Virus genome (UHGV): UHGV-1351772
From: a virus
Length of the DNA: 64,000 nucleotides
Strand: one strand, 5' to 3'
The stretch's first letter is position 1, and each line of letters opens with the position of its first letter. Shown here in pieces: positions 14,967 through 55,740 of this stretch. The notes below the pieces were generated by a model. It did no database searches and had not been told where the DNA came from. It saw nothing but the letters and a program-made list of their open reading frames with translations. A program made the position numbers and the translations under genes.

Positions 14967-16229
14967 TTATTTAGATTTTTCGTAAGCAGCGATACCTGCG
15001 GAGATATAGCCGTTCAGACCGCTGGCCAGGTGTTTCTGGGTAGAAGCAATAATTTTCTCATTAAAAGAGAGACTACGTTGAACACTGGTAATGTGGCGAC
15101 GTAACTTACGCACATTGTCGGTCAGTTCTGGTTTTTCATCGATCTTGACTTTATCGATTTCTTTCAACAGATTACCGATTTTATCTTCAAAGGACTTACG
15201 TGCGCTTTCGACTTTACGATAAGCCTGAACGTTTTTCTCGATCTGTTTACCCACTTCGTTGAAGAAGGCATTGATCTTAGCCAGTTCGCCAACAGACGGA
15301 GTTTTCACGCTGGTTTCAACGCTTTTCTCAGCTTCGACAAAGGTATAACTAAAGCCACCTTCTTCATCGTACTCGACTTTCGCAGAGACGTTGCCGAGAT
15401 GATATTCGATAACTTCTTTTTTGGCGATCGCTTCGAAAACTTTCTTCAGTTCTCCATCAAAAGAAGCATCGCCTTTAAGGGCTTTATCAACCATGCCAGC
15501 AGCATCAGTGGCTAAAGAAGGGACTTCATTACTATAGAAATTAGAAACTCTGTGCAGATCGTCTTTCAGTGACGGGATATCGTTGCCAACGAACTTGCCA
15601 TCGATAGACAGAGACTTGATAAAGCCACCAGAGATTTCATCTTTCTTCTGTTTGCCCAGCTTACGAATAACTTCATCGTATTTCTTAGCACGCGCCTGGA
15701 TAGATTTACCCTGGTTGTGGAATTTCAGCCAGCGATCTTTGATCTTACGACCCTGTTCTTTCAGCCAATCCCAGATACGACCAATGAAGGCTTTAATGTC
15801 TTCCCACAGGGATTCACGAGCAACCTGACGACGGTTACGAGAACCGTAGGATTCGTGAGCAACAGAAGAACGGTGTTCGAAGTTCCAACGAGAACGGATA
15901 GATTCCTGAGCAACGTCCAGCGCAGTCGCAGCGTCGTCCGGCATATCTTCTTCGGCGTCCATCGGTTCTTCACCGTCTTCGCCAGCACCTTCACCGTCAG
16001 CAGCAGCCTGAGCTTCATCCAGAACATCCAGCTGAGCGTCAGTTTCGTCGCCGTCTTCTGCCAGCAGTTCAGCGTCAGCGTCCAGAGCTTCGATCGGTTT
16101 GGTGTCATGCTCGATATCGGCCAGAGTGCCTTCTACGGATTCTGCTGGCAGTTCGATGCCGTCTGGAACTACAGTAGAAGTAGACTCCATAGACTCACGA
16201 GCAATTTTGTTTTTGTAGAAATTCGCCAT
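14967..16229 (-). CDS. acidic protein, tandem paralog A (possible scaffold or internal virion protein)
   Basis: 420 aa; MANFYKNKIARESMEST N-terminus, acidic D/E-rich region, shared LRKLGKQKKDEISGGFI motif and ...NGYISAGIAAYEKSK C-terminus with 16312..17583; biased codon usage; GAGGA RBS. Confidence 0.6.
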   Translation of the reverse strand: MANFYKNKIARESMESTSTVVPDGIELPAESVEGTLADIEHDTKPIEALDADAELLAEDGDETDAQLDVLDEAQAAADGEGAGEDGEEPMDAEEDMPDDAATALDVAQESIRSRWNFEHRSSVAHESYGSRNRRQVARESLWEDIKAFIGRIWDWLKEQGRKIKDRWLKFHNQGKSIQARAKKYDEVIRKLGKQKKDEISGGFIKSLSIDGKFVGNDIPSLKDDLHRVSNFYSNEVPSLATDAAGMVDKALKGDASFDGELKKVFEAIAKKEVIEYHLGNVSAKVEYDEEGGFSYTFVEAEKSVETSVKTPSVGELAKINAFFNEVGKQIEKNVQAYRKVESARKSFEDKIGNLLKEIDKVKIDEKPELTDNVRKLRRHITSVQRSLSFNEKIIASTQKHLASGLNGYISAGIAAYEKSK

Positions 16230-16247
16230 TTTAAGCTTTTCCTCTAA

Positions 16248-16270
16248 GGGGAACGTATTGTTCCCCTGAT
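16248..16270. terminator. terminator hairpin between the tandem paralogs
   Basis: ggggaac-gtatt-gttcccc. Confidence 0.45.
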
Positions 16271-16311
16271 GATTTATTTCAAGAACTGTACGGAACTACG
16301 AATCTAAATGA

Positions 16312-17583
16312 TTATTTAGATTTTTCGTAAGCACCGATACCAGCACCCAGGTAGCCATTCAGACCGCTAATAACGGTGTTAGCAACATAGCTAACTGCGC
16401 GGTTCAGGGTCTGGTAGTTCTTAACAGACCAATCGGCAGCTTGACGTGCGTTACGCAGGCCATCCCACTTGCTATCGTCTTTTTCGTTGTTCAGCGCCTT
16501 AGCAGCATTCTCAGCAGCCTGTTGCAGCTTCACGATTTCAGAATCGTAAGCACGGAAATCTTTCAGTACGGCTTCGAAGCCTTTACCGATCGCTTCCAGA
16601 GCAGAAGCAGCGCCAGCCATTTCAGAAACAGACGGAGTTTTCACGTCTTTATCGTCAGAAGCGTCGCCGGTGCTCATGAATGCGATTGCAGTGAACTTGT
16701 GGCCGCCAGCCAGTTCTTTAGTACCAGCCTGAATGTAAGCGTTGCCCGGCAGTGCCAGCAGTTTAGACGCATCACCTTTTTCAAAGTTCGGCAGAGTGTG
16801 TAGTTTAGAAGCAGCTTTACCAAACAGTTCTACCGGCTGATCACCACGCATTGCCTTGAATGCGTCATCGTCACCTTTGGTAACGGCAGTCACAGCTTCA
16901 CCAGCTTGTTTTTCCAGAGCACCGATGGAACCTTTAGCTTTACCAGCGGTAACTTCTTTCGCAATAGCGATAGAGCCAGCAGCATCGAATTTACCTTCGA
17001 TAGACAGCTTGGTGATAAAGCCACCAGAGATTTCATCTTTCTTCTGTTTGCCCAGCTTACGCAGCATTTCCTGATATTTCTTCGCACGTTTCTGTGCGGT
17101 CTTACCGACGTTGAAATATTTCAGTTTCAGGTCTTTGATCTTCGCAATCACTTCTTTACAGAACTGAATGAAACGATCGTAAAGATCTTTCAGGGTTTCT
17201 TTCCAACCTTCCTGTGCAGCAGCAGTCATACCACGACCACGGCGATAGGATTCGCGAGCCAGTTTAGTACGTTCCAGGCACCAACGACGTGCGATGGATT
17301 CCTGTGCCACTTCGTGCAGGGCAACCGCTTCTTCCGGCATTTCTTCACCGTTAGCAACGGCTTCTTCCGCCTGTTCGATAGCGTCTTCAGTACGCTCGGT
17401 ATCGGCAGCCAGGGTTTCACCGTCGGTTTCCAGCTGATCGAGCTGACCGTCGATAGATGCTACGTCCGCAAGTTGGACGTCCAGGTTCTCTTCTGCCGGT
17501 TCAACGTTGCTGATACCGTCGATTACTTCATCGGCCGCTTCCATCGATTCACGAGCGGCGCGAGTTTTTGCGAAATTTGCCAT
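16312..17583 (-). CDS. acidic protein, tandem paralog B
   Basis: 423 aa; MANFAKTRAARESMEAAD..., same shared motifs and C-terminus ...NGYLGAGIGAYEKSK. Confidence 0.6.
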   Translation of the reverse strand: MANFAKTRAARESMEAADEVIDGISNVEPAEENLDVQLADVASIDGQLDQLETDGETLAADTERTEDAIEQAEEAVANGEEMPEEAVALHEVAQESIARRWCLERTKLARESYRRGRGMTAAAQEGWKETLKDLYDRFIQFCKEVIAKIKDLKLKYFNVGKTAQKRAKKYQEMLRKLGKQKKDEISGGFITKLSIEGKFDAAGSIAIAKEVTAGKAKGSIGALEKQAGEAVTAVTKGDDDAFKAMRGDQPVELFGKAASKLHTLPNFEKGDASKLLALPGNAYIQAGTKELAGGHKFTAIAFMSTGDASDDKDVKTPSVSEMAGAASALEAIGKGFEAVLKDFRAYDSEIVKLQQAAENAAKALNNEKDDSKWDGLRNARQAADWSVKNYQTLNRAVSYVANTVISGLNGYLGAGIGAYEKSK

Positions 17584-17642
17584 TTCGTTTATTTCCTTTG
17601 GTTATATAACCCAATTACACGCCCCTAGAATGAGGGGCCCCC

Positions 17643-18203
17643 TTAGGGACGTGCGATTTTCAAAAACACTGCTAACGACGAGATCATGTCGGACAACCCG
17701 TTCGGGCGCGTCATCCAGCGTGCCAGCAGTTCATGGTCTGCATAAGATAAAAGACGTTTGCTACACTCAACGGATTGGTGAGCAGAGCCCATATTACGTA
17801 CAGTACCTCGGCGACCAAACGCAGCAGCTAATAGACGCGAGCCTAATGCACCCGTCTGTTCAACATTCTTCGTGTTACGAACATCGTTCATATACGACGA
17901 CAGCAAAGTCGACCACTGCCCTAACGTCACATTACGTCGCTTACCATCCAGCAAGAAATCTACACTTTCGTTATAAAACGTATTAAAGGTAAATCCGACC
18001 TGCGGATATTCGTCATATAATACTTGCTGCAAAGAATCAGCAGCCATCAGACGAAAGTACGGTAAAATAACGGCGGCGGCTTCCAGTGTTTTGTGAATAA
18101 CCTCGTCATCGTGTGTGTCGATTGGGTTTTTCGATAAAATCGACATGTAGGATTTAATGCGCTCTACAGCAACATTAAATTCAGGACTATCGTGCTCAAA
18201 CAT
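17643..18203 (-). CDS. hypothetical protein
   Basis: 186-aa ORF. Confidence 0.5.
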   Translation of the reverse strand: MFEHDSPEFNVAVERIKSYMSILSKNPIDTHDDEVIHKTLEAAAVILPYFRLMAADSLQQVLYDEYPQVGFTFNTFYNESVDFLLDGKRRNVTLGQWSTLLSSYMNDVRNTKNVEQTGALGSRLLAAAFGRRGTVRNMGSAHQSVECSKRLLSYADHELLARWMTRPNGLSDMISSLAVFLKIARP

Positions 18204-18220
18204 TCGCCTCTCCTAACGGT

Positions 18221-19156
18221 TTACGCTAAACCGTATTTCTTTTCAAGACGCTCACGCTTGTGCTTGAGTTCCATCAGATGCTTTTCACTGATTTCAATCA
18301 GTTTCTCAATGTAGGCATCACCCTTACCTTCTGCGACTTGCTTTTTGTAAAGTAAGATACGCAGTTCCGCCGCTTTCGCCGCTTCTACACACTCGTCGTA
18401 CTTATCCATCTGCCGTTCAGCGATATTCAAACGTACGCGCAATATCAGCGAGATTGGGAACGGTACACTGCTCATTCCCAGTGGGTCAACGGAGCTCGAA
18501 CCGAACTGTTGCGCCAACTCACCGTAAGTTTCGTCGTTAAAGATCGCTTCAGGAATTTCCGCATAATCCGCTTTCAGTTTATTCAGCGGCGTTGCCAGCA
18601 CACGGACAGCAATGCAGTAAGAAATAGAACGAGTATTGAGGTATTGAAGGTCATTCGGACCGACGCCTTTTACTTCAATATTCGAGCCTTCTACGGCGGC
18701 TATTTCTTCCGCGGTTACGTAGTTAAGTAAGGTGGCACTGTAACCTGTAAAGAAGTCAATCAGGTCAAGCAGTCTGAGCACCGTTAATTTATTAAACGTC
18801 ATTGAAGACGTGACTAACGCTTTACCAATGTCACGCGTAATACATTGGTCTAAGAAAGAACGCAATTGTAGCGTGTTTTCCATCGAGGCAACGATGTATT
18901 CCAGCATCGAAGGATTACGGAGACCTTTGGCTTCCAGACCGGAATTCCGCAGGTATTTAACCAAATCATCCGACATGTCCTGCACCGTTTTCGATTTAAA
19001 CGGCTTGCCTTCTTTCGACGCTACCAGCTCTTGCAGAGACTGGAAACGCGGTAAAAGTTGTTCACCAATCGCATCGCAGTTTGATGAGAGTTGGTTTTTC
19101 AAGTTTGTTGCTTCAAAGCTCGGCAACAACATAGCGAGCATATTCGGGATTGCCAT
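18221..19156 (-). CDS. hypothetical protein
   Basis: 311-aa ORF. Confidence 0.55.
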   Translation of the reverse strand: MAIPNMLAMLLPSFEATNLKNQLSSNCDAIGEQLLPRFQSLQELVASKEGKPFKSKTVQDMSDDLVKYLRNSGLEAKGLRNPSMLEYIVASMENTLQLRSFLDQCITRDIGKALVTSSMTFNKLTVLRLLDLIDFFTGYSATLLNYVTAEEIAAVEGSNIEVKGVGPNDLQYLNTRSISYCIAVRVLATPLNKLKADYAEIPEAIFNDETYGELAQQFGSSSVDPLGMSSVPFPISLILRVRLNIAERQMDKYDECVEAAKAAELRILLYKKQVAEGKGDAYIEKLIEISEKHLMELKHKRERLEKKYGLA

Positions 19157-42145: not shown

Positions 42146-42469
42146 ATGTTAGACAATTTTATTACCCTAGAAGAATTCATACCTGCGCCTTACACCACGA
42201 CGTGGAAAGTGATGCACGATTACACAGACTATCTGCGTAAACACCCGAAAACTAAAATAGAAAATGTTGACCCACGCTACAGTTGGCCTGAGGTCCACAA
42301 TTTCTACGCCTACTGTAAACTCAAAGGTTACGCCGATATCATTATCTATCCGATGATGCTATTAAACGGGCTAGAAGACCCCATGAATTTCACCCCTGAA
42401 ATCACGCAACTAATCGTACCCGACGTCGGAACGGTTAGTGAGATTATTAGCACCATCGGTAATGATTAA
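42146..42469 (+). CDS. hypothetical protein
   Basis: 107-aa ORF preceded by motif, followed by terminator. Confidence 0.5.
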   Translation: MLDNFITLEEFIPAPYTTTWKVMHDYTDYLRKHPKTKIENVDPRYSWPEVHNFYAYCKLKGYADIIIYPMMLLNGLEDPMNFTPEITQLIVPDVGTVSEIISTIGND

Positions 42470-42506: not shown

Positions 42507-43886
42507 TTAGCGCGTAAATGGCGAAGTTGCAAATCCACCGAAGCTGCTTTGCGGCTGTCCGCCAAAACTGCTATTCGTTGCAAATGCTGAACTCGTGCTA
42601 AACGCGCTAGTCCCTCCTACGTTCCCGCTAAAAGAATTATTCCCTCCGCCAAAGGTACTTGCCAAAGAACCTCCGGTATTCCCTACACCGAAGTTACTCT
42701 GACCACCGAAAGGTGACACCTTGCGCTCTCCACCAAACGCATCCACAACAGAAATTCGACTTACCATACCGTTGGCAGGGTTAGTTGTTCCGTGCTGCTC
42801 GGCGTAACGTTGCATCGCTGGCGTCAAATTCCCATAAGGACTATGCGTGGCCATGTTACGTTCACGTGCGCGGAAGAATTCCATCGGATCGGACTTATCT
42901 GCTTTATCTGCATCCGATGCACGTTTTTGTGGAATCTGCTGTGGTGCCTGTGCACGATCAATACGGAAATCATGCGCCGTGGTATCACGTTCAGGGCTGT
43001 CAGAACGTGGGCCGGTGTTATACGGTAAGGTCTGAATGACGTTATCGTAAATATCCATATTGTCCAGCTGAGAAATCCATTCATCTTCCAACGGACGTAA
43101 AGAAGTGTGGTCGCGCAATCCCTTAACGACGTTGTTATAGTTCACAACGTACTGCGCCCAACCACGCGCTAAGCAACCGAAATACGGACGCGAATCATTA
43201 GACCCCGTTACGCTCGGATACCAACCGAACACGGTGGTCAATAAACGATGGATAATGATTTTGTCTTGTTTACGTTGAAGCTTCGCAGAGAAGTACATTG
43301 CAGTACCATCTAACGATTCTTCTTCGAACATATTCCGATAATTAGCTACACGGTTAAACTTCACGCCGTCGATAACTAAATCAGACGCAATAAAAAGCTG
43401 GGTGATCTTGTGCTTTTTATCTTTTTCCAATTGTGCATAAACGAACGCCTTAACCGCTTCCCAGGATTTTACCAAACGTTCATCGAACGTCGGATCTTTC
43501 ATCCCTTCGCAAATCTGTTCTGTTAAGAATTTCTTGTAGGATGCAGAACGTACTGCTTTACCACTTGCCCCCGTTTCCAGAATCGCGTCGATTAATGCAA
43601 AGGAACGAATGAACAGGTTCGCATTAATGGATTTCTTCAGGAAACGAATTGTACCTGATTCACCTGCCAGTACCGATTCACACAGCGGATGAAATGCCTG
43701 ACATTCACGACCATCGTCGTCTTCCATGCCACGCTTAATCATCGCTGGGGTGGGAAGCGCCAAACGGCGCTTCACTTTGTTATACGTAAACTCTGCCGGT
43801 TCACCACCGTCACGAGTGAGTAAATCGTTTTCAAAATCGAATCCTTGTGATTTAAGAAACGATTTGTAGAATTCAATAATTTTCAT
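42507..43886 (-). CDS. hypothetical protein with C-terminal FG(G)-repeat low-complexity tail
   Basis: 459 aa; C-terminal ~70 aa contain AFGG, PFGG, NFG, TFGG, SFGG, SFGGF repeats in a Gly/Ser/Asn-rich context. Confidence 0.55.
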   Translation of the reverse strand: MKIIEFYKSFLKSQGFDFENDLLTRDGGEPAEFTYNKVKRRLALPTPAMIKRGMEDDDGRECQAFHPLCESVLAGESGTIRFLKKSINANLFIRSFALIDAILETGASGKAVRSASYKKFLTEQICEGMKDPTFDERLVKSWEAVKAFVYAQLEKDKKHKITQLFIASDLVIDGVKFNRVANYRNMFEEESLDGTAMYFSAKLQRKQDKIIIHRLLTTVFGWYPSVTGSNDSRPYFGCLARGWAQYVVNYNNVVKGLRDHTSLRPLEDEWISQLDNMDIYDNVIQTLPYNTGPRSDSPERDTTAHDFRIDRAQAPQQIPQKRASDADKADKSDPMEFFRARERNMATHSPYGNLTPAMQRYAEQHGTTNPANGMVSRISVVDAFGGERKVSPFGGQSNFGVGNTGGSLASTFGGGNNSFSGNVGGTSAFSTSSAFATNSSFGGQPQSSFGGFATSPFTR

Positions 43887-43908
43887 TTAAGAGTCCTTGA
43901 TTAATCTT

Positions 43909-45615
43909 TTACTCGCCGAATGCACCAAAACCAGACACTGGCGCAGGAGTTGACATATCGCTGCCGCCAAAGCTACCGAAGCTACCCAGGCTCGTAGGTG
44001 CAGACACAGGGGCAGTTGGAATATTCGACAGGATATTCGAACGGTTCTGACCACGGTTGAATTCTTGGTACCCTTCTTCCACTTTATTCATCAGCTGCGC
44101 TGTTTCTGCAGCTAACTGGTTCGTGTACTGAAGGTCAGTTGTTGTACCACAATGCAGACGTGCTTTCATGAACGACGCATGAGTATAATACTCAGGCAGC
44201 TCACCATCGATTTCAATTTCAATACGTGAAACCACCCCGACGATACATGTTACGGTCATCTTACAACGAATACGGTTGTGTTTAGTCACTTGCAAGAATA
44301 CGCCTTGTAAGTCACTTAAGAAGCGACGCGCTAACACATCCGGTAATCCGTCTTCAGTTAATGCCCCAACGTTGTGTTTTGACACTTGCAGCAGAGGAGG
44401 TGTTGCAATATCCGCCATACGGTTATCGTAGAAGAAAGTCACTTCACCGATAAGGTTACGAGTGACCACAGGCCCCAGTAACATGGCTAAATCAAATGCC
44501 ACCAACGAACCCTGAGTAGAATAGTTATTACGTCCTACCCAATCATCGGTGCGTTCAATTTCACCAAAACCACGACGAGCCGCGACAGCCAGCGAGTGCG
44601 CAATTGCAGCGTCCACGTCTTCGGGATTAATCACCGCATTACGCAAGTCGCACAGTTTGAATGCTGCACGGTTCGCAACGTTCCAACCGCTAGTCATATC
44701 GGACGTGGCGTTGGATATGGCTGTTCTAAAAGCCTTCACCAACTCGTAACTGTTGAAATTACGCATCACACCGATCTGGCTAAGTTCAGATTCTACCCCA
44801 AGAGAATGATCTCCTGCGAAGAAACTGTCTACTGCGCTCAACTCCGTTTCAATCCCCATGGTATTAATGAAGGAATTGGAGATCGCTGTCACGAAAGATT
44901 CTGGTCGGGTTAATTGACTAGACATCAACTGTGGCGCACGCTGGCAATTAGCGGAGATAACGGTGTTGTTATCCAGCTCAATCTGCTCACCAGCTTTCAC
45001 CACTTTACGTACCATATCAGCTGCTTTCGCGGTAGAAATAACGTCAATGGTGTGCTCTACATAGCTGTCTGCGGTTAATGTCTTGGACAACACATAGTTG
45101 TCTATCAAACGGAAGGAATCCGGGTTGATACGACGTCCACCGAACGCATCAGTGATATACGTACATTGTAACCCGTATATTTCGTTGATATACAGAACCA
45201 TGTCGTCCGGCAGGTGATTAAACATGGATCGCTCTGCCTGGGACGTATACCCGGAAACAACATAACGCGTTTCCTGAGTCCGTGTGTCGTTTAACGAGTT
45301 CGAAACAATAATCGCCACGAAGTTATACACACCAGTATCGCGAGAATTATACGCAAATTGGATTGGTTGCGATTCGTTATCACTCACGTTAATGAATGGA
45401 CGTTCAATGCCTGTTGGGGTATTGTCGAAACCCACAATCTGCCCCAGGGCTTCTTGATAAGCCCGAGAACCTGTTGCTTTATCACCGTGTTCTGCAACCA
45501 CATCCACTAACTCATCCAAAGCGTGCTGCGATTCAAAGAACCCAATACGACGACGAATCTGCTCTGGGATTTCGTACACTGGATACATTTGTAGTTTCAA
45601 AAGTTTCATTGCCAT
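43909..45615 (-). CDS. hypothetical protein with C-terminal FG-repeat tail
   Basis: 568 aa; C-terminus ...SLGSFGSFGGSDMSTPAPVSGFGAFGE. Confidence 0.55.
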   Translation of the reverse strand: MAMKLLKLQMYPVYEIPEQIRRRIGFFESQHALDELVDVVAEHGDKATGSRAYQEALGQIVGFDNTPTGIERPFINVSDNESQPIQFAYNSRDTGVYNFVAIIVSNSLNDTRTQETRYVVSGYTSQAERSMFNHLPDDMVLYINEIYGLQCTYITDAFGGRRINPDSFRLIDNYVLSKTLTADSYVEHTIDVISTAKAADMVRKVVKAGEQIELDNNTVISANCQRAPQLMSSQLTRPESFVTAISNSFINTMGIETELSAVDSFFAGDHSLGVESELSQIGVMRNFNSYELVKAFRTAISNATSDMTSGWNVANRAAFKLCDLRNAVINPEDVDAAIAHSLAVAARRGFGEIERTDDWVGRNNYSTQGSLVAFDLAMLLGPVVTRNLIGEVTFFYDNRMADIATPPLLQVSKHNVGALTEDGLPDVLARRFLSDLQGVFLQVTKHNRIRCKMTVTCIVGVVSRIEIEIDGELPEYYTHASFMKARLHCGTTTDLQYTNQLAAETAQLMNKVEEGYQEFNRGQNRSNILSNIPTAPVSAPTSLGSFGSFGGSDMSTPAPVSGFGAFGE

Positions 45616-47407: not shown

Positions 47408-48052
47408 TTAGATAATATCGTCAAAATCGTTAGTTGGTGTTGGGGCTTTTGCAGCAGATTGGTTGTTATAACCTCCGCCGTTGCCGCCGTTATTGTAACC
47501 GCCGCGACCGTAACTACCACCACCCGCATTATTAAACTCACGCGGTTTGTAGTTGTCACGGAAATCTTCCAGGAATACATCCGCATTTTTCAGGAACGCG
47601 CGTAGCTGACGCTCTGCCAGTTCCAGATCGGAGACCAGTTGTCCATTACGGAAAACACGATAACCTTTCGGATAAGTGAAATAGAATTTCTTCTGACGCG
47701 CACCAACCCCTGGGATCTCGCCGCTCAGTGCAAAGAACGGTGTCAGATTTTCATCACGACCTACGTGTAAGCTAACCGGTGCCTTCTTACCTTTTGTATC
47801 TTCCCATTTGAAAACAACTTTTTCGGGTTTCTGCATCACCGTACGCAGGGTTTCAAAGATATCAACACAGACAGTATAACCTGCGGTGAAATAAAGACCT
47901 TCGCCTTTACCAAAGGAATAGTGGAATTTCATCAGTTCCACATCACCATTGAACTCGTTCAATTCAATGCCCAGTTTACGAGTACGGCCCTGTTGATCCG
48001 GCTCAGTCTGCGGGTAAAGCCATTTCTCTTTAAGGAAGTTTTTATTGACCAT
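47408..48052 (-). CDS. hypothetical protein; possibly SSB-like (Gly-rich linker plus acidic C-terminal tip)
   Basis: 214 aa; C-terminus GGGSYGRGGYNNGGNGGGYNN...NDFDDII resembles the Gly-rich linker and DFDDDIPF-type tip of bacterial SSB; N-terminal fold not verifiable by eye. Confidence 0.35.
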   Translation of the reverse strand: MVNKNFLKEKWLYPQTEPDQQGRTRKLGIELNEFNGDVELMKFHYSFGKGEGLYFTAGYTVCVDIFETLRTVMQKPEKVVFKWEDTKGKKAPVSLHVGRDENLTPFFALSGEIPGVGARQKKFYFTYPKGYRVFRNGQLVSDLELAERQLRAFLKNADVFLEDFRDNYKPREFNNAGGGSYGRGGYNNGGNGGGYNNQSAAKAPTPTNDFDDII

Positions 48053-51801: not shown

Positions 51802-53759
51802 TTACCCCGCCAATTTTAATAATTCCGAGTCAAGCGCGATACCGGCTTCCAAGTCCTCTTCAGTATCCTGGAAGAAACTGTTTATGTTGCTGATATTCTC
51901 GTTATGGAGAATCATGCAACTCGAAACCTCGTCCACATTCGTGCTTGACATAAACCCGTTGTCTGGGCGATAAGCCATGCCCAGTTCCATTTCAATCTGG
52001 TCGATTGCCAATCTACATTGTAACTGGTCGCCATCGAAATCCTGTTTGTCCACTCCATTCCTTTTGGAGCAGGTGTGCAATGACACCCTCCCATGCTTTC
52101 ACATGGGCACAGACTATATCATAACCGTAGGTATTGCTACCCGTAGGTCTCCCCCACTTCGCCGCTAAACTAAGCAGCTACTCTACTCGGTTTTACCCTT
52201 TCGATAGTCGTTGAACGATTTTCATCGCTGCTGGTTATCCATTATCACAACCCTTAGCATTATTGGTTAGCATAGGTTATCTTACGAATTGTTTCTGACT
52301 TTCGCCACCCTGTCGGGATCGTAAGCTTTAGGGGTTTCCAGCAATTCGAGGGATACGCACTAGAGGTTTCCCGTCTAGTGGGCCAGTGTTTAGCATTAGG
52401 TGCTTTGATGACGCGATCAGAAATACGCAGAGAACATTGTGTTACATCTGTCAGTACCGCTGAGATGAACAATGTCTGAATAGAAAGTTGAACCAATGTT
52501 GGGTTACGCAGAACTTCCAACATTAAGCCGAATCCGCCGGGGGATTCTTTAATCAACTCATTAATAATTTCATGTACCAACGGTACATACTGCATTGCCG
52601 CAAATGCAATGATGCGCTCACATTGTCGAGGTGTATAATCACGTCGACCTAACTTGTTCTCAATGTGAACACTCGCCAACGGAACCAACCAACGCCAAGG
52701 CGCAATAACTTTCAACGCATCATGAGGTTCAGAGATAGGAGAGATAGTCACACGTCCGCCCCACGGTACGTGTGTTGACCCGAGTTTTGCCCGATAGAAC
52801 CCAGGTTTACCTTCCATCACTTCCTGACGATGGTCAATATAGAAATACGCAAGCTGTCGATTCGCTTTGATCGCACGACGAATAATAAATCGTGGTTCGA
52901 TACGGCGTGCATTCGTGTACAACAACGCCACATTTTTTACTGCGTCGATAGCGCTGGTATAAACCGGATCGATAAAAATACCTTGTCGGCGCTCCTCCGT
53001 AACGATCAGTTTTGATGAAATAATCGGAAGGTGTCTTGGAAAGAATGAGAACGATTGTTCCTGAAAGAACTCACGCCATTCTAAGCGCACGCGCTCACTC
53101 TCATAACGGTTATTTTTCGTTGGTGGATAAATCTCCTTCCAAGCTTCCGGAGACGTAAGGATATTAAAGACGGTTCGATGGTGGTCGATAAAGTTTCGAA
53201 TTCCCCGTTCGAAGCCATGTTCGCCGAGTATTCTTTTCACCACGCGAGCACGTGTTCCCTCGTCCTTTTCTGGATGGTAGTACGGATCGATTAGCCACAG
53301 CAGTAAATCAGACCCGCGTTCTACCGTCACTTTGTTACGATTAAATTTTTTCAGCTTAGAGCCAAAGAAGGCATTAAAGAGAGACCAAAAACGTGGATTG
53401 ATAAAGTTACCCATCTCATCGGGAGCGCGTAACCAGACATCAGACGTAATCCGATGTTCAGAAACAACATGTCCGCAATGTGGGCAACGAAGCCCAAGAT
53501 TATAACGATGGGTAATAGGTGATTCGCAGGTCAGACTGCAAATAGGAGCCGAGTTGAGTGTTTCATCAACGATTCGGTTTTGGAGTATTTGGTTAATCAT
53601 CTCCGACGCTTCGATGGTATCCATCGTTGCAGCAACGTCATTGATAATAATCGGTGGTTTGTAGCCTTTTTCCTCCGCTTCTTGTATACAGTCACGTAAC
53701 ATCTTGTCGTGACTAATTAGTCGCCCCGAAATCCCGTAATATTCTAGTTTATGTTCCAC
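51802..53759 (-). CDS. multisubunit RNA polymerase beta-prime-like subunit, N-terminal portion with catalytic DFDGD; interrupted by a group I intron (exon 1 about 52446..53759, exon 2 about 51802..52087)
   Basis: Exon 1 has zinc ribbon CSLTCESPITHRYNLGLRCPHCG, GKPGFYRAKLG...GGRVTISP (cf. [20 protein letters not shown]) and LRNPTLVQLSIQ (cf. [12 protein letters not shown]); exon 2 has LHTCSKRNGVDKQDFDGDQL (cf. [18 protein letters not shown]); ORF-track splits this into two ORFs and reads through the intron. Confidence 0.75.
52088..52446 (-). other. group I self-splicing intron (ORF-less), boundaries approximate within about 10 nt
   Basis: On the gene strand, in order: P-like gaattgctggaaac (52331..52350), Q-like aaccagcagcg (52226..52236), R-like gttcaacgactat (52204..52216), S-like gatatagtctg (52110..52120), then a P9-like hairpin cccatg-tgaaag-catggg; P3 (ctgg/ccag) and P7 (gacta/tagtc) pairings possible. 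Confidence 0.7.
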
Positions 53760-53789
53760 GCCGAATCCTCAACAAAAAAAGAGAGGGAA

Positions 53790-53814
53790 GGGACAGGGGG
53801 TTTTCCCCTGTCCC
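53790..53814 (-). terminator. rho-independent terminator after 53844..55691
   Basis: gggacagggg-gtttt-cccctgtccc hairpin followed by T-run on minus strand. Confidence 0.6.
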
Positions 53815-53843
53815 TCAACTACTGCTTACTACTTACCAACTTA

Positions 53844-55691
53844 TTAGAAAGTCGGACGCCAGTCAGTTGCAGCGAAGGACATACCGAAATCGCTACCAAA
53901 TGCGTTAGGACCGCTACCAGACAGCGCGAAGTTCTCATTACCCGTGTTAACAAACACAGAGTGAGTGAGGCTGTTCGCTGCGGTAACACCATTCACCTGG
54001 AAGTTGCAGTTTTCAGTAATGTATTCCACCAGTGCTTTACCAAACAGCGGATTGATCGCCAGGTCAGACGCTTCACCCGTTACCTGCGGCTGTTTGCTAC
54101 CGAACATGGACGCAGCCATTTTCAGCAGGTACAGACGCTGGTCACGCGCATTCAGATAGCGGTGAGAGTAGGACTGTGCACTGATGTAGTCGATCGCATC
54201 GCGTTGGTTATCACCCACTTTAGTCAGAGCGGAAACCAAGTCCATATCCTGGAAGCTGCGTTTCTGGCTGTTGCTGAAATACTGACCAGAGATGGTCGGG
54301 CAACCGGCAATAACAACGTGTTTGCACTCGAAGTTGGTGACATTGCCCAGCAGTGCTTTGAAGCGAGTGCTGAACTTAGTCGCGCCGTTGCTGGCCATGT
54401 TATCCAGGATATTGAACAGGGTGTACAGTGCGTTGGTGTTACCCATCCCGATTTCGCTCAGGAGAGTAGACAGGCCACCGATACCGTTACCTGCACGATG
54501 GTTCACCACCAGGGCCGCAGTCGGGTTAGCGAAGGTGTCCAGGCATTTCTCGATAACTTCACGGTTACCGTCGATTTTGCTCAGGTCAGGTTTTTCGCTG
54601 CCCCATTCTACATACTCCAGAACGCGGGAGAAGCGGCGATCGGTTTTGTTCAGCGACTGCATGAAACGTTCACGCCAGCCACCAATAGTGGCGATTTGTG
54701 CGAACGCGGCCAGTTCAATCAGCTGACGCTCGATAGGTGCCATTGCCCCAGAGGACTGAGAATCCATCAGGGAAACAACCACTTCGGCTTCCAGCTGACG
54801 CAGGTCCTGAGTACCGTTAGTCAGGGTTTGAGGTTTACCTTTATGGCGGAGGTTGATGTAACCAACACCTGCAACGCTCGGATAATTCTGGAGGCGTTCA
54901 GAAGAGAACAGCGTCGGGTTATTATCGTTGTTGCCAGTGCGAGTGTGGTCAACCACAACCATCAGGTCAGCACGTTGTGCAGAACCGTTAACGTCAGTTA
55001 CAGAACCTTCTTCAACTACGCTGACTTGCGCGGTGAAGCGATCAGAACGGGTCATTTTCAGGTAGCCCAGGTAGCCGGAATGACGACCGAAGATACCCAA
55101 TGCAATCTGGCCCATGAGCTGGTTAGCCCATTCTTCGTTCATGGTTTTACCCAGTTCCGGTACGCAGTTCATTACCATGAACTGTACGCTTGGCAGATTG
55201 TGCTGAGTTGCAATCTGGTTAGTGATGTTGTTCATCACACCTTCTTGACTGAACAGCTGCGCCAGGGTGTAGTAGTTTTCTTTACCGTTGATTTCGTAGA
55301 AACGGATGGACTGGCCATGTTCAAAGAACAGGATACCATAGAGCCATTCGTTATGGTTATCGCCGGACGGACCAGCCACGTATGCAGCAGAACCCATTTC
55401 AGAGTTGATGCCGTCAATAACACCCCAACGGAAGTTACGCAGGTATGTGTTCTTCTCCGCCATCTTCTCAATCAGGCTAGTGAACTGAGAAGCAGTGGAC
55501 ACGAAAGACATGTATCCGAAAGCTTTATCGAAAGTAGAGATGTTTTTAGACATCCCACCAAAAGCGTTGGCCGCATTGGTATTATCCACAGTAGCAGCTC
55601 CCGCGCCACCGAAAGACGGAATTGGATCTGCAGCGGAACCAGCAGCACCAGTCACAACGTCGTTTTGATTGTCAATAAACTCTTTAGCCAT
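53844..55691 (-). CDS. abundant 615-aa protein; candidate phage nuclear-shell protein (chimallin), alternatively a virion structural protein
   Basis: Strong codon bias; AAGGA RBS; two tandem consensus promoter motifs upstream; own terminator; size and extended N/C tails are compatible with chimallin, but no direct sequence verification is possible here. Confidence 0.4.
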   Translation of the reverse strand: MAKEFIDNQNDVVTGAAGSAADPIPSFGGAGAATVDNTNAANAFGGMSKNISTFDKAFGYMSFVSTASQFTSLIEKMAEKNTYLRNFRWGVIDGINSEMGSAAYVAGPSGDNHNEWLYGILFFEHGQSIRFYEINGKENYYTLAQLFSQEGVMNNITNQIATQHNLPSVQFMVMNCVPELGKTMNEEWANQLMGQIALGIFGRHSGYLGYLKMTRSDRFTAQVSVVEEGSVTDVNGSAQRADLMVVVDHTRTGNNDNNPTLFSSERLQNYPSVAGVGYINLRHKGKPQTLTNGTQDLRQLEAEVVVSLMDSQSSGAMAPIERQLIELAAFAQIATIGGWRERFMQSLNKTDRRFSRVLEYVEWGSEKPDLSKIDGNREVIEKCLDTFANPTAALVVNHRAGNGIGGLSTLLSEIGMGNTNALYTLFNILDNMASNGATKFSTRFKALLGNVTNFECKHVVIAGCPTISGQYFSNSQKRSFQDMDLVSALTKVGDNQRDAIDYISAQSYSHRYLNARDQRLYLLKMAASMFGSKQPQVTGEASDLAINPLFGKALVEYITENCNFQVNGVTAANSLTHSVFVNTGNENFALSGSGPNAFGSDFGMSFAATDWRPTF

Positions 55692-55740
55692 TTTACTTAA
55701 TCCTTATAAGGTTTAATACAATTGTAGTGTTGGTTCACGT

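What the first reader, a model, noticed from the sequence alone, without database searches (positions are those of the whole stretch)
42507..45615. Adjacent proteins with FG(G)-repeat low-complexity C-terminal tails, echoed at the termini of the 615-aa abundant protein
The 459-aa protein ends with about 70 residues rich in Gly/Ser/Asn carrying repeated AFGG/PFGG/TFGG/SFGG units, and the next gene (568 aa) ends ...SFGSFGGSDMSTPAPVSGFGAFGE. The 615-aa protein at 53844..55691 has similar dipeptides at both ends (PSFGGAG...NAFGGMS; NAFGSDFGMSF). FG-repeat disordered tails on several proteins in one phage region are unusual and suggest a shared short linear motif for binding a common partner or for condensation; a role in the nuclear-shell environment is speculative.
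Basis: inference. Interest (0 to 1): 0.6.

Follow-up and report, generated by a model that had tools for sequence, protein, structure and literature searches.

The report
FG-repeat tails on phage-nucleus shell proteins
In a nucleus-forming jumbo phage, the nuclear protein importer PicA/Imp1, its neighbour (the phiKZ gp70 homologue) and the shell protein chimallin carry matching disordered Phe-Gly repeat tails that change together across related phages, which suggests they bind each other or the shell and recalls the FG repeats of eukaryotic nuclear pores.

Summary
The 459-aa protein ends in a 70-residue, almost uncharged Gly/Ser/Thr/Asn tail with 10 Phe (5 FG). The 568-aa protein has 4 FG in its last 23 residues. 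The 615-aa protein has lineage-specific FG motifs in both disordered termini.

The proteins are, in order, the phiKZ gp70/PhiPA3 gp64 homologue, PicA/Imp1 (the essential nuclear protein importer) and chimallin (Foldseek E 8e-20). All three families are reported at the phage-nucleus shell.

FG itself is a lineage "dialect". A sister phage keeps the Phe positions while the spacers drift. The nearest named relatives (phiEaH2, SPN3US) have Leu-Gly repeats at the same places. Other lineages use NPF, xLFG/SMFG, Met/Gln/Pro, Tyr/Gln/Pro or Arg/Asp.

The dialect co-varies within genomes:
- PicA tail vs gp70 tail: p ≤ 1e-4
- either tail vs the chimallin termini: p about 0.001–0.04

Controls were mostly negative, and there is no DNA-level repeat or gene conversion between the tails.

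Best reading: these are multivalent "sticker-and-spacer" disordered tails that tether PicA and gp70 to each other and to chimallin's flexible arms. This is inferred, not shown. A nucleoporin-like selective phase is possible but untested. I found nothing on these tails in the literature searched.

The parts
42507..43886 (-). Gene for the 459-aa homologue of phiKZ gp70 / PhiPA3 gp64. This is a shell-associated protein of unknown function: a globular domain (residues 1 to about 290), a linker, and a low-complexity tail.
42510..42734 (-). FG-repeat disordered tail of the gp70 homologue (residues 385-459). It contains SPFGG, SNFGV, STFGG, NSFSG, SAFST, SAFAT, SSFGG and SSFGG, then GFATSPFTR.
   Evidence: AF2 pLDDT is below 50 for 385-445 and 447-459. 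The protein's lowest-entropy segment lies here. The last 70 residues hold 10 F, 16 G and 1 charged residue. Against the sister phage, F columns are 9/11 identical and other columns 13/42, Fisher p=0.003.
43909..45615 (-). Gene for the 568-aa PicA / Imp1 family protein, the selective protein importer of the phage nucleus.
   Evidence: It matches phrog_3141 at E 1.9e-127. PhiPA3 gp63 (PicA), Goslar gp174, Deimos-Minion gp250 and a Vibrio phage protein fall in the same family. It sits at the same syntenic position, between the nvRNAP gp68 homologue and the gp70 homologue. Pairwise BLASTP against PhiPA3 gp63 is not significant on its own.
43912..44016 (-). FG-repeat tail of PicA (residues 534-568): TAPVSAPTSLGSFGSFGGSDMSTPAPVSGFGAFGE.
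   Evidence: It holds 4 FG in 35 aa, shuffle p=7e-4. It lies outside the PHROG profile match, which covers residues 1-536. The protein's lowest-entropy segment lies here. The sister phage has 5 FG and the same FGAFGE end.
53844..55691 (-). Gene for chimallin (ChmA), the major nuclear-shell protein, 615 aa.
   Evidence: The AF2 model (pTM 0.68) gives nine Foldseek top hits against PDB that are all chimallin/PhuN structures, E 8e-20 to 1e-16. It is about 50% identical to the protein at the SPN3US gp244 locus, which PMC9365700 names a chimallin homologue. Synteny agrees.
55542..55691 (-). Disordered N-tail of chimallin (residues 1-50), with the lineage-specific motifs PSFGG27 and NAFGG44. It lies upstream of the conserved FDKAFGY segment, which by position corresponds to the NTS.
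   Evidence: pLDDT is below 30 for residues 1-64. In the alignment the same position reads P-S-F-G-G in the window clade and A-P-L-G-G in Erskinevirus and Seoulvirus. In 201phi2-1 the N tail (1-47) is disordered and dispensable for assembly, and the NTS is residues 48-61 (PMC9365700).
53847..53975 (-). C-terminal flexible segment of chimallin (residues 573-615, the CTS1/CTS2-equivalent region), with NAFGS598 and SDFGM602.
   Evidence: pLDDT is below 40. SDFG(L/M) is conserved across the clade, whereas NAFGS is specific to the window clade. Same-genome similarity of the C-terminal 40 aa gives p=0.003 against gp70 and p=0.011 against PicA.
47408..48052 (-). Context: gene for ChmC / Imp6 (214 aa). 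This shell-associated RNA-binding protein binds Imp1. Its own tail is a different type, rich in N/G with SYG and RGG motifs, at residues about 172-214 (47411..47539).
   Evidence: Synteny with PhiPA3 gp61 / phiKZ gp67 and a match to phrog_3284. The PhiPA3 ChmC tail drives condensates (PMC11077065). Imp6 binds Imp1 (bioRxiv 10.1101/2024.03.27.586873). By k-mer composition its tail does not co-vary with the gp70 tail (p about 0.3).

Best explanation
The FG stretches are intrinsically disordered, nearly uncharged 'sticker-and-spacer' tails. A hydrophobic residue followed by Gly recurs every 5-13 residues in a Gly/Ser/Thr/Asn background. They sit on two adjacent shell-associated proteins of a nucleus-forming jumbo phage: the importer PicA/Imp1 and the gp70/gp64 homologue. 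The same motif is present in the flexible N-tail and the C-terminal arm of the shell protein chimallin.

The most likely function is multivalent, weak, like-with-like hydrophobic contact. This would tether PicA and gp70 to each other and to chimallin's own flexible lattice-linking arms, concentrating them at the shell or import site. Each phage lineage keeps the interacting partners in one shared 'dialect', and Phe-Gly is the dialect of this lineage.

Shown here: the identity of the proteins, predicted disorder of the gp70 tail and both chimallin termini (the PicA tail was not modelled), motif enrichment, conservation of Phe positions, and within-genome co-variation. Inferred only: that the tails touch each other or chimallin, and that this matters for localisation or import.
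For: Identity. Shell localisation of PhiPA3 gp61/63/64: PMC10643120.

Disorder: pLDDT below 50 for gp70 residues 385-459, and for chimallin 1-64 and 573-615. Each protein's lowest-entropy window lies in these tails.

Motif selection: F is followed by G in 11/17 tail positions in the window phage and 15/18 in the sister. Against the sister phage the gp70 globular domain is 93% identical, tail non-F/G columns 31%, and F columns 82% (Fisher p=0.003).

Concerted switch: the window clade is nested inside a large Leu-Gly radiation and is sister to phiEaH2. It is F-type in gp70, in PicA and in the chimallin N-tail. phiEaH2 and SPN3US are L-type in all three at aligned positions.

Statistics on 14-15 clade representatives:
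- gp70 tail vs PicA tail, k-mer cosine: p<=1e-4 for k=1-3
- gp70 vs PicA, local alignment of the C-terminal 40 aa: p=2e-5
- chimallin vs gp70: p=0.003
- chimallin vs PicA: p=0.011
- chimallin N50 vs gp70 tail: p=0.04, 0.009 and 0.009
- local-alignment controls: not significant, p=0.07-0.22

Independent FG lineages repeat the pattern. L020, L021 and L023 carry SMFG or FG repeats on gp70 and xLFGG or HFGG on PicA, and L020 chimallin has GFGTFG at its C-terminus.

Other causes are excluded or unlikely:
- No tandem repeats or shared DNA beyond 16-22 nt, so no recent duplication or gene conversion.
- F/(F+L) in globular parts is 0.38 against 0.28-0.33, so there is no matching genome-wide drift.
- In the whole phiEaH2 genome only these two proteins carry dense LG repeats.

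Precedent: the neighbouring ChmC tail drives condensates (PMC11077065).
Against: No experiment or complex model links the tails to any partner.

In E. coli pull-downs phiKZ gp70 did not bind Imp1. PicA of Goslar and Deimos-Minion has almost no low-complexity tail, so a PicA tail is not universal in the family.

The link to chimallin is statistically weaker. PicA vs chimallin N50 is not significant for k=1 and k=2.

Some controls showed small same-genome effects: gp70 tail vs PicA globular segment, k=1, p=0.003; ChmC vs gp70 terminal residues, p=0.006-0.03. A genome-wide composition component therefore exists.

Clade representatives are not fully independent. The 201phi2-1 chimallin N tail is dispensable for assembly and incorporation (PMC9365700). 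The tails are short (35-70 aa).
Confidence: 0.5

Rival explanations
1. Docking motif, or chimallin-tail mimicry. Each hydrophobic-Gly unit, or only the extreme C-terminus, is a short linear motif. It inserts into a folded groove on chimallin, the same groove that receives chimallin's own NTS, CTS1 or CTS2. PicA and gp70 would thereby be plugged into or onto the lattice. Co-variation would reflect all three tails tracking one pocket.
For: Chimallin's NTS, CTS1 and CTS2 are known to dock on neighbouring protomers (PMC9365700).

The C-terminal 40 aa of chimallin resemble those of gp70 (p=0.003) and PicA (p=0.011) from the same genome.

The extreme C-termini often match:
- L025: all three proteins end in RW.
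- PhiPA3: gp63 and gp64 both end in LGLL.
- ctg16610: PicA ends TFNY and gp70 ends SFNY.
- Kwan: chimallin ends NSFTL and PicA ends DNFKL.

For the last 3 residues the tests give p=0.004-0.011.

The end of the window gp70 (SFGGFATSPFTR) resembles the end of chimallin (FGMSFAATDWRPTF). In the sister phage the pair is PFASASTSP and SFASGNYSP.
Against: The two independent F-type clades share no convergent substitutions in the chimallin core (0 columns), PicA (1) or gp70 (3), against a background of 0-8 for unrelated clade pairs. No co-evolving pocket is visible, although the test has low power.

A single docking peptide does not explain 9-11 regularly spaced stickers, or the wide range of tail grammars across the gp70 family.

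One control for the terminal-residue test was itself significant (ChmC vs gp70).
Confidence: 0.25
2. Passive linkers or entropic bristles. The tails are just flexible, fast-evolving low-complexity ends with no specific partner. The shared composition would come from shared mutational and expression constraints within each genome.
For: The tails evolve fast and are rich in indels. Grammar varies enormously across the gp70 family. A weak genome-wide composition effect exists (control p=0.003 at k=1). The chimallin N tail is dispensable in 201phi2-1.
Against: Phe positions are conserved (82%) while spacers drift (31%). F is specifically followed by G.

A concerted L-to-F switch occurred in three proteins while globular F/L usage stayed nearly the same.

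By k-mer composition, ChmC tails in the same genomes do not co-vary with gp70 tails. Dense hydrophobic-Gly repeats are confined to exactly these two proteins in a 243-kb genome. A low-complexity tail is retained in most of 147 gp70-family representatives.
Confidence: 0.15
3. Nucleoporin-like selective phase. The tails of PicA and gp70, with chimallin N-tails, form a cohesive FG meshwork that fills the import opening of the shell. This would act as the permeability barrier through which PicA-licensed cargo passes.
For: PicA is the essential, selective importer and forms one punctum on the shell (PMC11087766). No pore has been seen, and the translocation step is unknown.

The tails have the hallmarks of cohesive FG domains. 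They are uncharged, have Ser/Thr/Asn/Gly spacers, carry xxFG motifs with conserved Phe, and have fast-drifting spacers. Other lineages carry xLFG and SMFG repeats with Asn/Gln spacers.
Against: The tails are 35-70 residues with 4-10 stickers, far shorter than nucleoporin FG domains (my own knowledge). Most relatives use Leu, Met, Tyr or Arg/Asp instead of Phe. They give no match to the Pfam nucleoporin FG models. Copy number at the punctum is unknown, and no experiment bears on permeability.
Confidence: 0.1

Closest known systems
ChmC / Imp6 C-terminal N/G-rich disordered tail (PhiPA3 gp61; Enustun et al., NAR 2024, PMC11077065)
   Same: It is a disordered low-complexity C-terminal tail on a phage-nucleus shell-associated protein, encoded in the same conserved gene block. 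The ChmC tail is needed for condensate formation in vitro. The ChmC orthologue lies three genes away in this window.
   Different: The ChmC tail is Asn/Gly-rich with Tyr and Arg (SYG, RGG) and ends in an acidic cluster, and it works with RNA. The PicA and gp70 tails are uncharged hydrophobic-Gly repeats. By k-mer composition they do not co-vary with the ChmC tail. They have not been described in the literature I could search.
Eukaryotic FG-nucleoporin domains, cohesive GLFG / PSFG / SAFG type (comparison from my own knowledge)
   Same: Both have xxFG motifs in an uncharged Ser/Thr/Asn/Gly spacer, conserved Phe with drifting spacers, and predicted disorder. Both are attached to machinery that moves proteins selectively into a DNA-containing compartment.
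   Different: There is no homology and no Pfam nucleoporin-FG match. The tails are 35-70 aa rather than hundreds. Phe is replaced by Leu, Met, Tyr or charged residues in most related phages. No barrier function or transport-receptor binding is known.
Chimallin NTS / CTS1 / CTS2 lattice-linking segments (Laughlin et al., Nature 2022, PMC9365700)
   Same: These are flexible terminal segments that hold the shell together by docking on neighbours. Chimallin's termini in this phage carry the same FG motifs, and their sequence co-varies with the PicA and gp70 tails.
   Different: NTS and CTS are single, ordered-on-binding peptides of chimallin itself. The tails here are repeats on other proteins. 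Two of the chimallin FG motifs lie in the N tail that is dispensable for assembly in 201phi2-1.
PicA / Imp1 import system (PNAS 2024, PMC11087766; bioRxiv 10.1101/2024.03.27.586873)
   Same: The 568-aa protein belongs to this family, and the gene order ChmC - nvRNAP gp68 - PicA - gp70 is identical.
   Different: Published work maps cargo selectivity to surfaces of the folded PicA domain. I found no role, and no mention, of a C-terminal low-complexity tail. phiKZ-type and Goslar-type PicA have little or no such tail.

Membership tests
PicA / Imp1 (protein importer of chimalliviruses) | Sequence-family membership together with PhiPA3 gp63, phiKZ gp69 and Goslar gp174 | tested here: met
   The window 568-aa protein matches phrog_3141 at E 1.9e-127. 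PhiPA3 gp63 (4e-170), Goslar gp174 (1e-46), Deimos-Minion gp250 and the Vibrio phage homologue match the same family. Direct BLASTP against gp63 is not significant.
PicA / Imp1 (protein importer of chimalliviruses) | Conserved position between the nvRNAP gp68 homologue and the gp70 homologue, downstream of chmC | tested here: met
   The gene order is the same in PhiPA3, Goslar, Deimos-Minion, a Vibrio phage, eight Erwinia, Salmonella and Cronobacter phages and metagenomic contigs.
PicA / Imp1 (protein importer of chimalliviruses) | Required for selective protein import; forms a punctum on the shell | not testable with these tools
   This is known only for phiKZ, PhiPA3 and Goslar (PMC11087766).
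phiKZ gp70 / PhiPA3 gp64 family | Homology of the globular domain | tested here: met
   Both the window protein and PhiPA3 gp64 match phrog_3520. The profile built here hits PhiPA3 gp64 at 1e-24, Goslar gp173 at 4e-17 and Deimos-Minion gp251 at 5e-23. tblastn to PhiPA3 gives 1e-11. The family has 497 representatives at E<=1e-10.
phiKZ gp70 / PhiPA3 gp64 family | Localisation to the nuclear shell | not testable with these tools
   Shown for GFP-tagged PhiPA3 gp64 (PMC10643120). phiKZ gp70 is listed among nuclear proteins.
Chimallin (ChmA) | Chimallin fold | tested here: met
   The top nine Foldseek hits of the AF2 model are 7sqq, 7sqv, 7sqt, 7sqr, 7squ, 7sqs, 8igg and 8fne, E 8e-20 to 1e-16, probability 1.00.
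Chimallin (ChmA) | Match to Pfam PF25677 (Chimallin_Phikzvirus) | tested here: not met
   The window protein gives no Pfam hit. Orthologues in related contigs carry a precomputed PF25677 hit. The family model is built on phiKZ-type sequences, so the sequence is simply too diverged. Fold and synteny decide.
Chimallin (ChmA) | Flexible N- and C-terminal segments flanking a two-domain core | tested here: met
   pLDDT is below 30 for residues 1-64 and below 40 for 573-615, with a confident core.
FG-nucleoporin domains | Homology or profile match to nucleoporin FG repeat families | tested here: not met
   The isolated tails give no Pfam hit even at E up to 10.
FG-nucleoporin domains | Disordered, low-charge region with repeated xxFG motifs and conserved Phe | tested here: met
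   The scale is much smaller (35-70 aa, 4-10 Phe).
FG-nucleoporin domains | Cohesive phase formation, a selective permeability barrier, and binding of transport receptors | not testable with these tools
   This needs biochemistry and in vivo work.
ChmC-type condensate-forming tail | Asn/Gly-rich region followed by a Ser/Asp/Glu cluster, on a Whirly-fold RNA binder | tested here: not met
   The PicA and gp70 tails lack the acidic cluster and the Tyr/Arg motifs. Their k-mer content does not co-vary with ChmC tails (p about 0.3). The true ChmC orthologue is the 214-aa protein at 47408..48052.

The most novel reading that the evidence does not exclude
The hydrophobic-Gly tails of the importer PicA and of gp70, together with the matching flexible arms of chimallin, form a cohesive selective phase at the single import site of the phage nucleus. 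This would be a convergent, miniature counterpart of the FG barrier of the eukaryotic nuclear pore, with each phage lineage using its own sticker (Phe, Leu, Met, Tyr or Arg/Asp).
Probability: 0.12. Interest if true: 0.95.

Novelty: new variant of a known kind. Interest (0 to 1): 0.66.

Why it matters
How proteins cross the closed chimallin shell is the main open question about the phage nucleus. PicA/Imp1 is known to select cargo, but the translocation step and the way PicA is held at one spot on the shell are unknown. gp70/gp64 has no assigned function.

Matching, co-evolving disordered tails on PicA, gp70 and chimallin give a concrete hypothesis for how the import site is assembled or anchored. 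It can be tested with simple tail deletions, Phe-to-Ser changes and tail swaps between FG-type and LG-type phages.

If the tails prove cohesive, a virus of bacteria would have arrived independently at the same physical principle as FG nucleoporins. Even if they only serve as tethers, the lineage-specific dialects could contribute to the known species specificity of nuclear import and to incompatibility between co-infecting chimalliviruses.

Tried and rejected
1. Recent DNA duplication, slippage or gene conversion between the two tails. Rejected: there are no tandem repeats, and the only shared stretches are 16-22 nt that encode S-T-F-G-G.

2. Genome-wide Phe/Leu drift. Rejected as the main cause: globular F/(F+L) is 0.38 against 0.28-0.33, whereas the tails switch from about 10% to about 90%.

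3. A co-evolving folded pocket. I looked for substitutions shared by the two F-type clades in the chimallin, PicA and gp70 cores. None exceeded background.

5. Direct sequence links to solved chimallin or to PhiPA3 PicA. phmmer against PDB found nothing, BLASTP was insignificant, and a profile against PDB was marginal (8fne, E 0.02). PHROG families, bridging profiles and the fold search resolved this instead.

6. Pfam nucleoporin FG models on the tails: no hit.

7. Chimallin N-tail of an independent FG lineage (L020).

8. Literature on gp70 essentiality or on FG tails. Nothing was found in the papers checked. The Nature 2025 version of the Imp1 paper is not in the library.


Full report
**What the window is.** The region belongs to a nucleus-forming jumbo phage (a chimallivirus).
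- At the DNA level, only the part of the 42507-45615 query that encodes most of the 459-aa protein (30% of the query) matches cultured phages: 76.7% identity to Erwinia phages phiEaH2 and Stratton.
- Gene order from 39.8 to 57 kb is the conserved block known from PhiPA3 gp53-gp65 and phiKZ gp54-gp71: DNA polymerase, a reverse-strand gene, chimallin, nvRNAP beta', small genes, SbcD, gp66, ChmC, nvRNAP gp68, PicA, gp70, a small reverse-strand gene, nvRNAP beta.

**Identity of the three proteins.**
- *568-aa protein (43909..45615, minus strand).* It falls in phrog_3141 (E 1.9e-127). PhiPA3 gp63 (PicA), Goslar gp174 and the syntenic proteins of Deimos-Minion and a Vibrio phage fall in the same family. 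Pairwise BLASTP against gp63 is not significant by itself.
- *459-aa protein (42507..43886, minus strand).* It falls in phrog_3520 with PhiPA3 gp64. A profile of its orthologues hits PhiPA3 gp64 at 1e-24 and Goslar gp173 at 4e-17.
- *615-aa protein (53844..55691, minus strand).* It is chimallin. Its AlphaFold2 model (pTM 0.68) retrieves only chimallin/PhuN structures as top hits (7sqq, 7sqv, 8fne and others, E 8e-20 to 1e-16). It is about 50% identical to the protein at the SPN3US gp244 locus, which Laughlin et al. named a diverged chimallin (PMC9365700).
- *214-aa protein (47408..48052).* This is the ChmC/Imp6 orthologue.

Published work places PhiPA3 gp61 (ChmC), gp63 (PicA) and gp64 at the nuclear shell (PMC10643120). 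It shows PicA/Imp1 to be the essential selective importer that forms a punctum on the shell (PMC11087766; bioRxiv 10.1101/2024.03.27.586873). It shows Imp1 binds Imp6 but, in E. coli pull-downs, not gp70.

**The observation.**
- The last 70 residues of the 459-aa protein contain 16 Gly, 15 Ser, 10 Phe, 7 Thr, 6 Asn and one charged residue.
- PicA's last 35 residues hold four FG.
- Chimallin has PSFGG27 and NAFGG44 in its N-terminus, and NAFGS598 and SDFGM602 near its C-terminus.
- In the window as a whole, FG occurs exactly as often as composition predicts (52 against 51.5). Only the two tails reach 4 FG per 40 residues, and chimallin's N-terminus reaches 3.
- In 717 kb of related phage DNA, 4 or more FG per 40 residues is found only in these two proteins of this phage and of its sister lineage.
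- Within the tails, Phe is followed by Gly more often than shuffling gives: PicA p=7e-4 and gp70 p=0.045. In the sister phage both give p=1.5e-4.
- AlphaFold2 gives a confident globular domain for gp70 residues 1-290 (pLDDT above 90) and pLDDT below 50 for 385-459. For chimallin, residues 1-64 and 573-615 are below 40.
- In each of the four shell proteins, the lowest-complexity window coincides with these segments.

**Are the tails conserved?** As low-complexity tails, yes. As FG, only partly.
- A sister phage (contig from ERR10505394) is 93%, 82% and 72% identical in the globular parts of gp70, PicA and chimallin. It has 8-9 FG on gp70, 5 on PicA, and PSFGG and NAFGG in chimallin's N-tail.
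- In the gp70 tail alignment, Phe columns are 9/11 identical and columns without F or G 13/42 (Fisher p=0.003). This is the pattern expected when the Phe residues are under selection and the spacers are not.
- The nearest named relatives carry Leu instead of Phe. phiEaH2 and Asesino have GGLGGG repeats, and SPN3US has LLGG/LGG. The Machinavirus group has NSLL(D/G), and Wellingtonvirus has GSLLGG.
- A neighbour-joining tree of the globular domain puts the FG clade deep inside this Leu-Gly radiation, as sister to phiEaH2. The change to Phe is therefore recent.
- Derbicusvirus phages (Phobos, CR5) form a second Phe-type clade with NPF repeats.

**Co-variation.** The central result is that the tail 'dialect' is shared by different proteins of the same genome.
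- The window phage and its sister are F-type in the gp70 tail, the PicA tail and the chimallin N-tail.
- phiEaH2 and SPN3US are L-type in all three, at aligned positions: P-S-F-G-G against A-P-L-G-G in chimallin.
- The Machinavirus group shares NSLLD/NSLLG between gp70 and PicA.
- A Vibrio phage has Arg/Asp-rich tails on gp70, PicA and both chimallin termini.

Permutation tests, one representative per clade:

| Comparison | Measure | p |
|---|---|---|
| gp70 tail vs PicA tail | k-mer cosine, k=1-3 | ≤1e-4 |
| gp70 vs PicA | local alignment, C-terminal 40 aa | 2e-5 |
| chimallin C-terminus vs gp70 | local alignment | 0.003 |
| chimallin C-terminus vs PicA | local alignment | 0.011 |
| chimallin N50 vs gp70 tail | k-mer cosine, k=1, 2, 3 | 0.04, 0.009, 0.009 |
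| chimallin N50 vs PicA tail | k-mer cosine, k=3 only | 0.0013 |
| controls: ChmC tail, gp68 C-terminus, a gp70 globular segment | k-mer or local alignment | 0.07-0.4 |

Two controls did show small effects: gp70 tail against a PicA globular segment (k=1, p=0.003), and ChmC against gp70 terminal residues (p 0.006-0.03). Some genome-wide composition signal therefore exists.

Alternative causes were examined.
- There is no tandem repeat and no shared DNA beyond 16-22 nt between the tail-coding regions.
- Phe/Leu usage in the globular parts barely differs between clades.
- In the complete phiEaH2 genome, dense LG repeats occur only in the gp70 and PicA orthologues.

**The family-wide picture.** A profile search of 1.84 billion representatives finds 497 gp70-family proteins at E<=1e-10. 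Among 147 full-length representatives:
- 65% have at least 60% Gly/Ser/Asn/Gln/Thr/Pro/Ala in the last 70 residues.
- 25% have strongly charged Arg/Asp(/Tyr) tails.
- Ten have three or more FG.

The grammars include SMFG with Asn spacers, perfect APQQxSxMFG repeats, NPF, GGFG, Tyr/Gln/Pro, Met/Gln/Pro and Trp/Gly/Pro.

For five of the FG-bearing lineages I recovered the upstream PicA gene.
- In three of them the PicA tail matches. L021 has SMFG on gp70 and three xLFGG on PicA. L020 has SMFG on gp70, LFGG/NLF on PicA and GFGTFG at the chimallin C-terminus. L023 has FG on gp70 and HFGGSF on PicA.
- L024 shares a Trp/Met/Pro flavour between the two tails, and L022 matches only weakly (one FG on PicA).
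- In a separately recovered Tyr/Gln/Pro lineage (L025), chimallin, PicA and gp70 all end in Arg-Trp. PhiPA3 gp63 and gp64 both end in LGLL.

**Mechanism.** The evidence fits disordered sticker-and-spacer tails whose hydrophobic stickers make weak multivalent contacts. These would be with matching tails and with chimallin's own flexible arms, which hold the lattice together (PMC9365700). They would tether PicA and gp70 at the shell.

The steps shown here are identity, predicted disorder (gp70 tail and chimallin termini), motif selection and co-variation. The contact itself is inferred.

A close rival is specific docking of a tail motif, or of the extreme C-terminus, into a chimallin groove (mimicry of CTS1/CTS2). 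The C-terminal similarities support it. Against it, the two F-type clades share no convergent substitutions in the cores of chimallin, PicA or gp70, and a single docking peptide does not explain 9-11 regularly spaced stickers.

Passive linkers are unlikely given the conserved Phe positions and the concerted switches.

A nucleoporin-like selective phase is the most exciting reading. The tails look like miniature cohesive FG domains on the phage's nuclear importer. However, they are short, most relatives use other stickers, there is no profile match to nucleoporin FG families, and nothing here bears on permeability.

**Comparison with what is known, and novelty.**
- The nearest described feature is the Asn/Gly-rich tail of ChmC, which drives condensates (PMC11077065). 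The tails here differ in chemistry and, by k-mer composition, do not co-vary with it.
- Searches for FG repeats, nucleoporin or disordered tails in the phage-nucleus literature held in the library found nothing. The Nature 2025 Imp1 paper could not be read.
- I therefore rate this a new variant of a known kind: low-complexity tails on phage-nucleus proteins.
- It offers a concrete, testable link to the open question of how the import site is built.

**Limits.**
- All functional statements are inference from sequence comparison and structure prediction.
- The clade representatives are not fully independent.
- The chimallin link is weaker than the PicA-gp70 link.
- PicA tails are absent in some chimallivirus lineages (Goslar, Deimos-Minion).
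- No multimer prediction could be run.

Noticed in passing
[not shown]
   Followed up: partly
loci L020-L027 and proteins P0107-P0248 (gp70 family): The C-terminal tail of the gp70 family is nearly always low complexity, but its grammar differs widely between lineages. The types seen are FG/MFG/LFG/NPF, LG, Met/Gln/Pro, Tyr/Gln/Pro (PGYP, QQPVQQGYGY), Trp/Gly/Pro and alternating Arg/Asp/Tyr.
   Followed up: partly
L025 (ENA ERZ18242344 contig); L009 (PhiPA3) 15368-18314: In L025, chimallin, PicA and gp70 all end in Arg-Trp (MNRW, NLRW, TTRW). PhiPA3 gp63 (PicA) and gp64 both end in LGLL. Shared extreme C-termini may mimic chimallin's CTS2.
   Followed up: partly
window 47411..47539 (minus strand), tail of the 214-aa ChmC/Imp6 orthologue: The ChmC tail here is GGGSYGRGGYNNGGNGGGYNNQ followed by an acidic end, NDFDDII. 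It is a Tyr/Arg (SYG/RGG) type, distinct from the FG tails three genes away.
   Followed up: partly
window 53751..55700 (plus strand): A 649-aa open reading frame runs antisense across the whole chimallin gene. The minus-strand product has the chimallin fold, so this ORF is probably a by-product of codon usage and not a gene.
   Followed up: no
window 42146..42469 (plus strand): A small gene (107 aa) on the opposite strand lies between gp70 and nvRNAP beta. It is present at the same place in the Erwinia, Salmonella, Cronobacter, Vibrio and Goslar phages and the metagenomic contigs examined, but is not annotated in PhiPA3. Its function is unknown.
   Followed up: no
L015 2051-3682 (phiEaH2 AFQ96548.1): A 543-aa hypothetical protein has an internal GGGLGGGGIGGSGGGI stretch. 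This was the only other Gly-rich stretch containing Leu/Ile that turned up in the whole-genome scan of phiEaH2.
   Followed up: no
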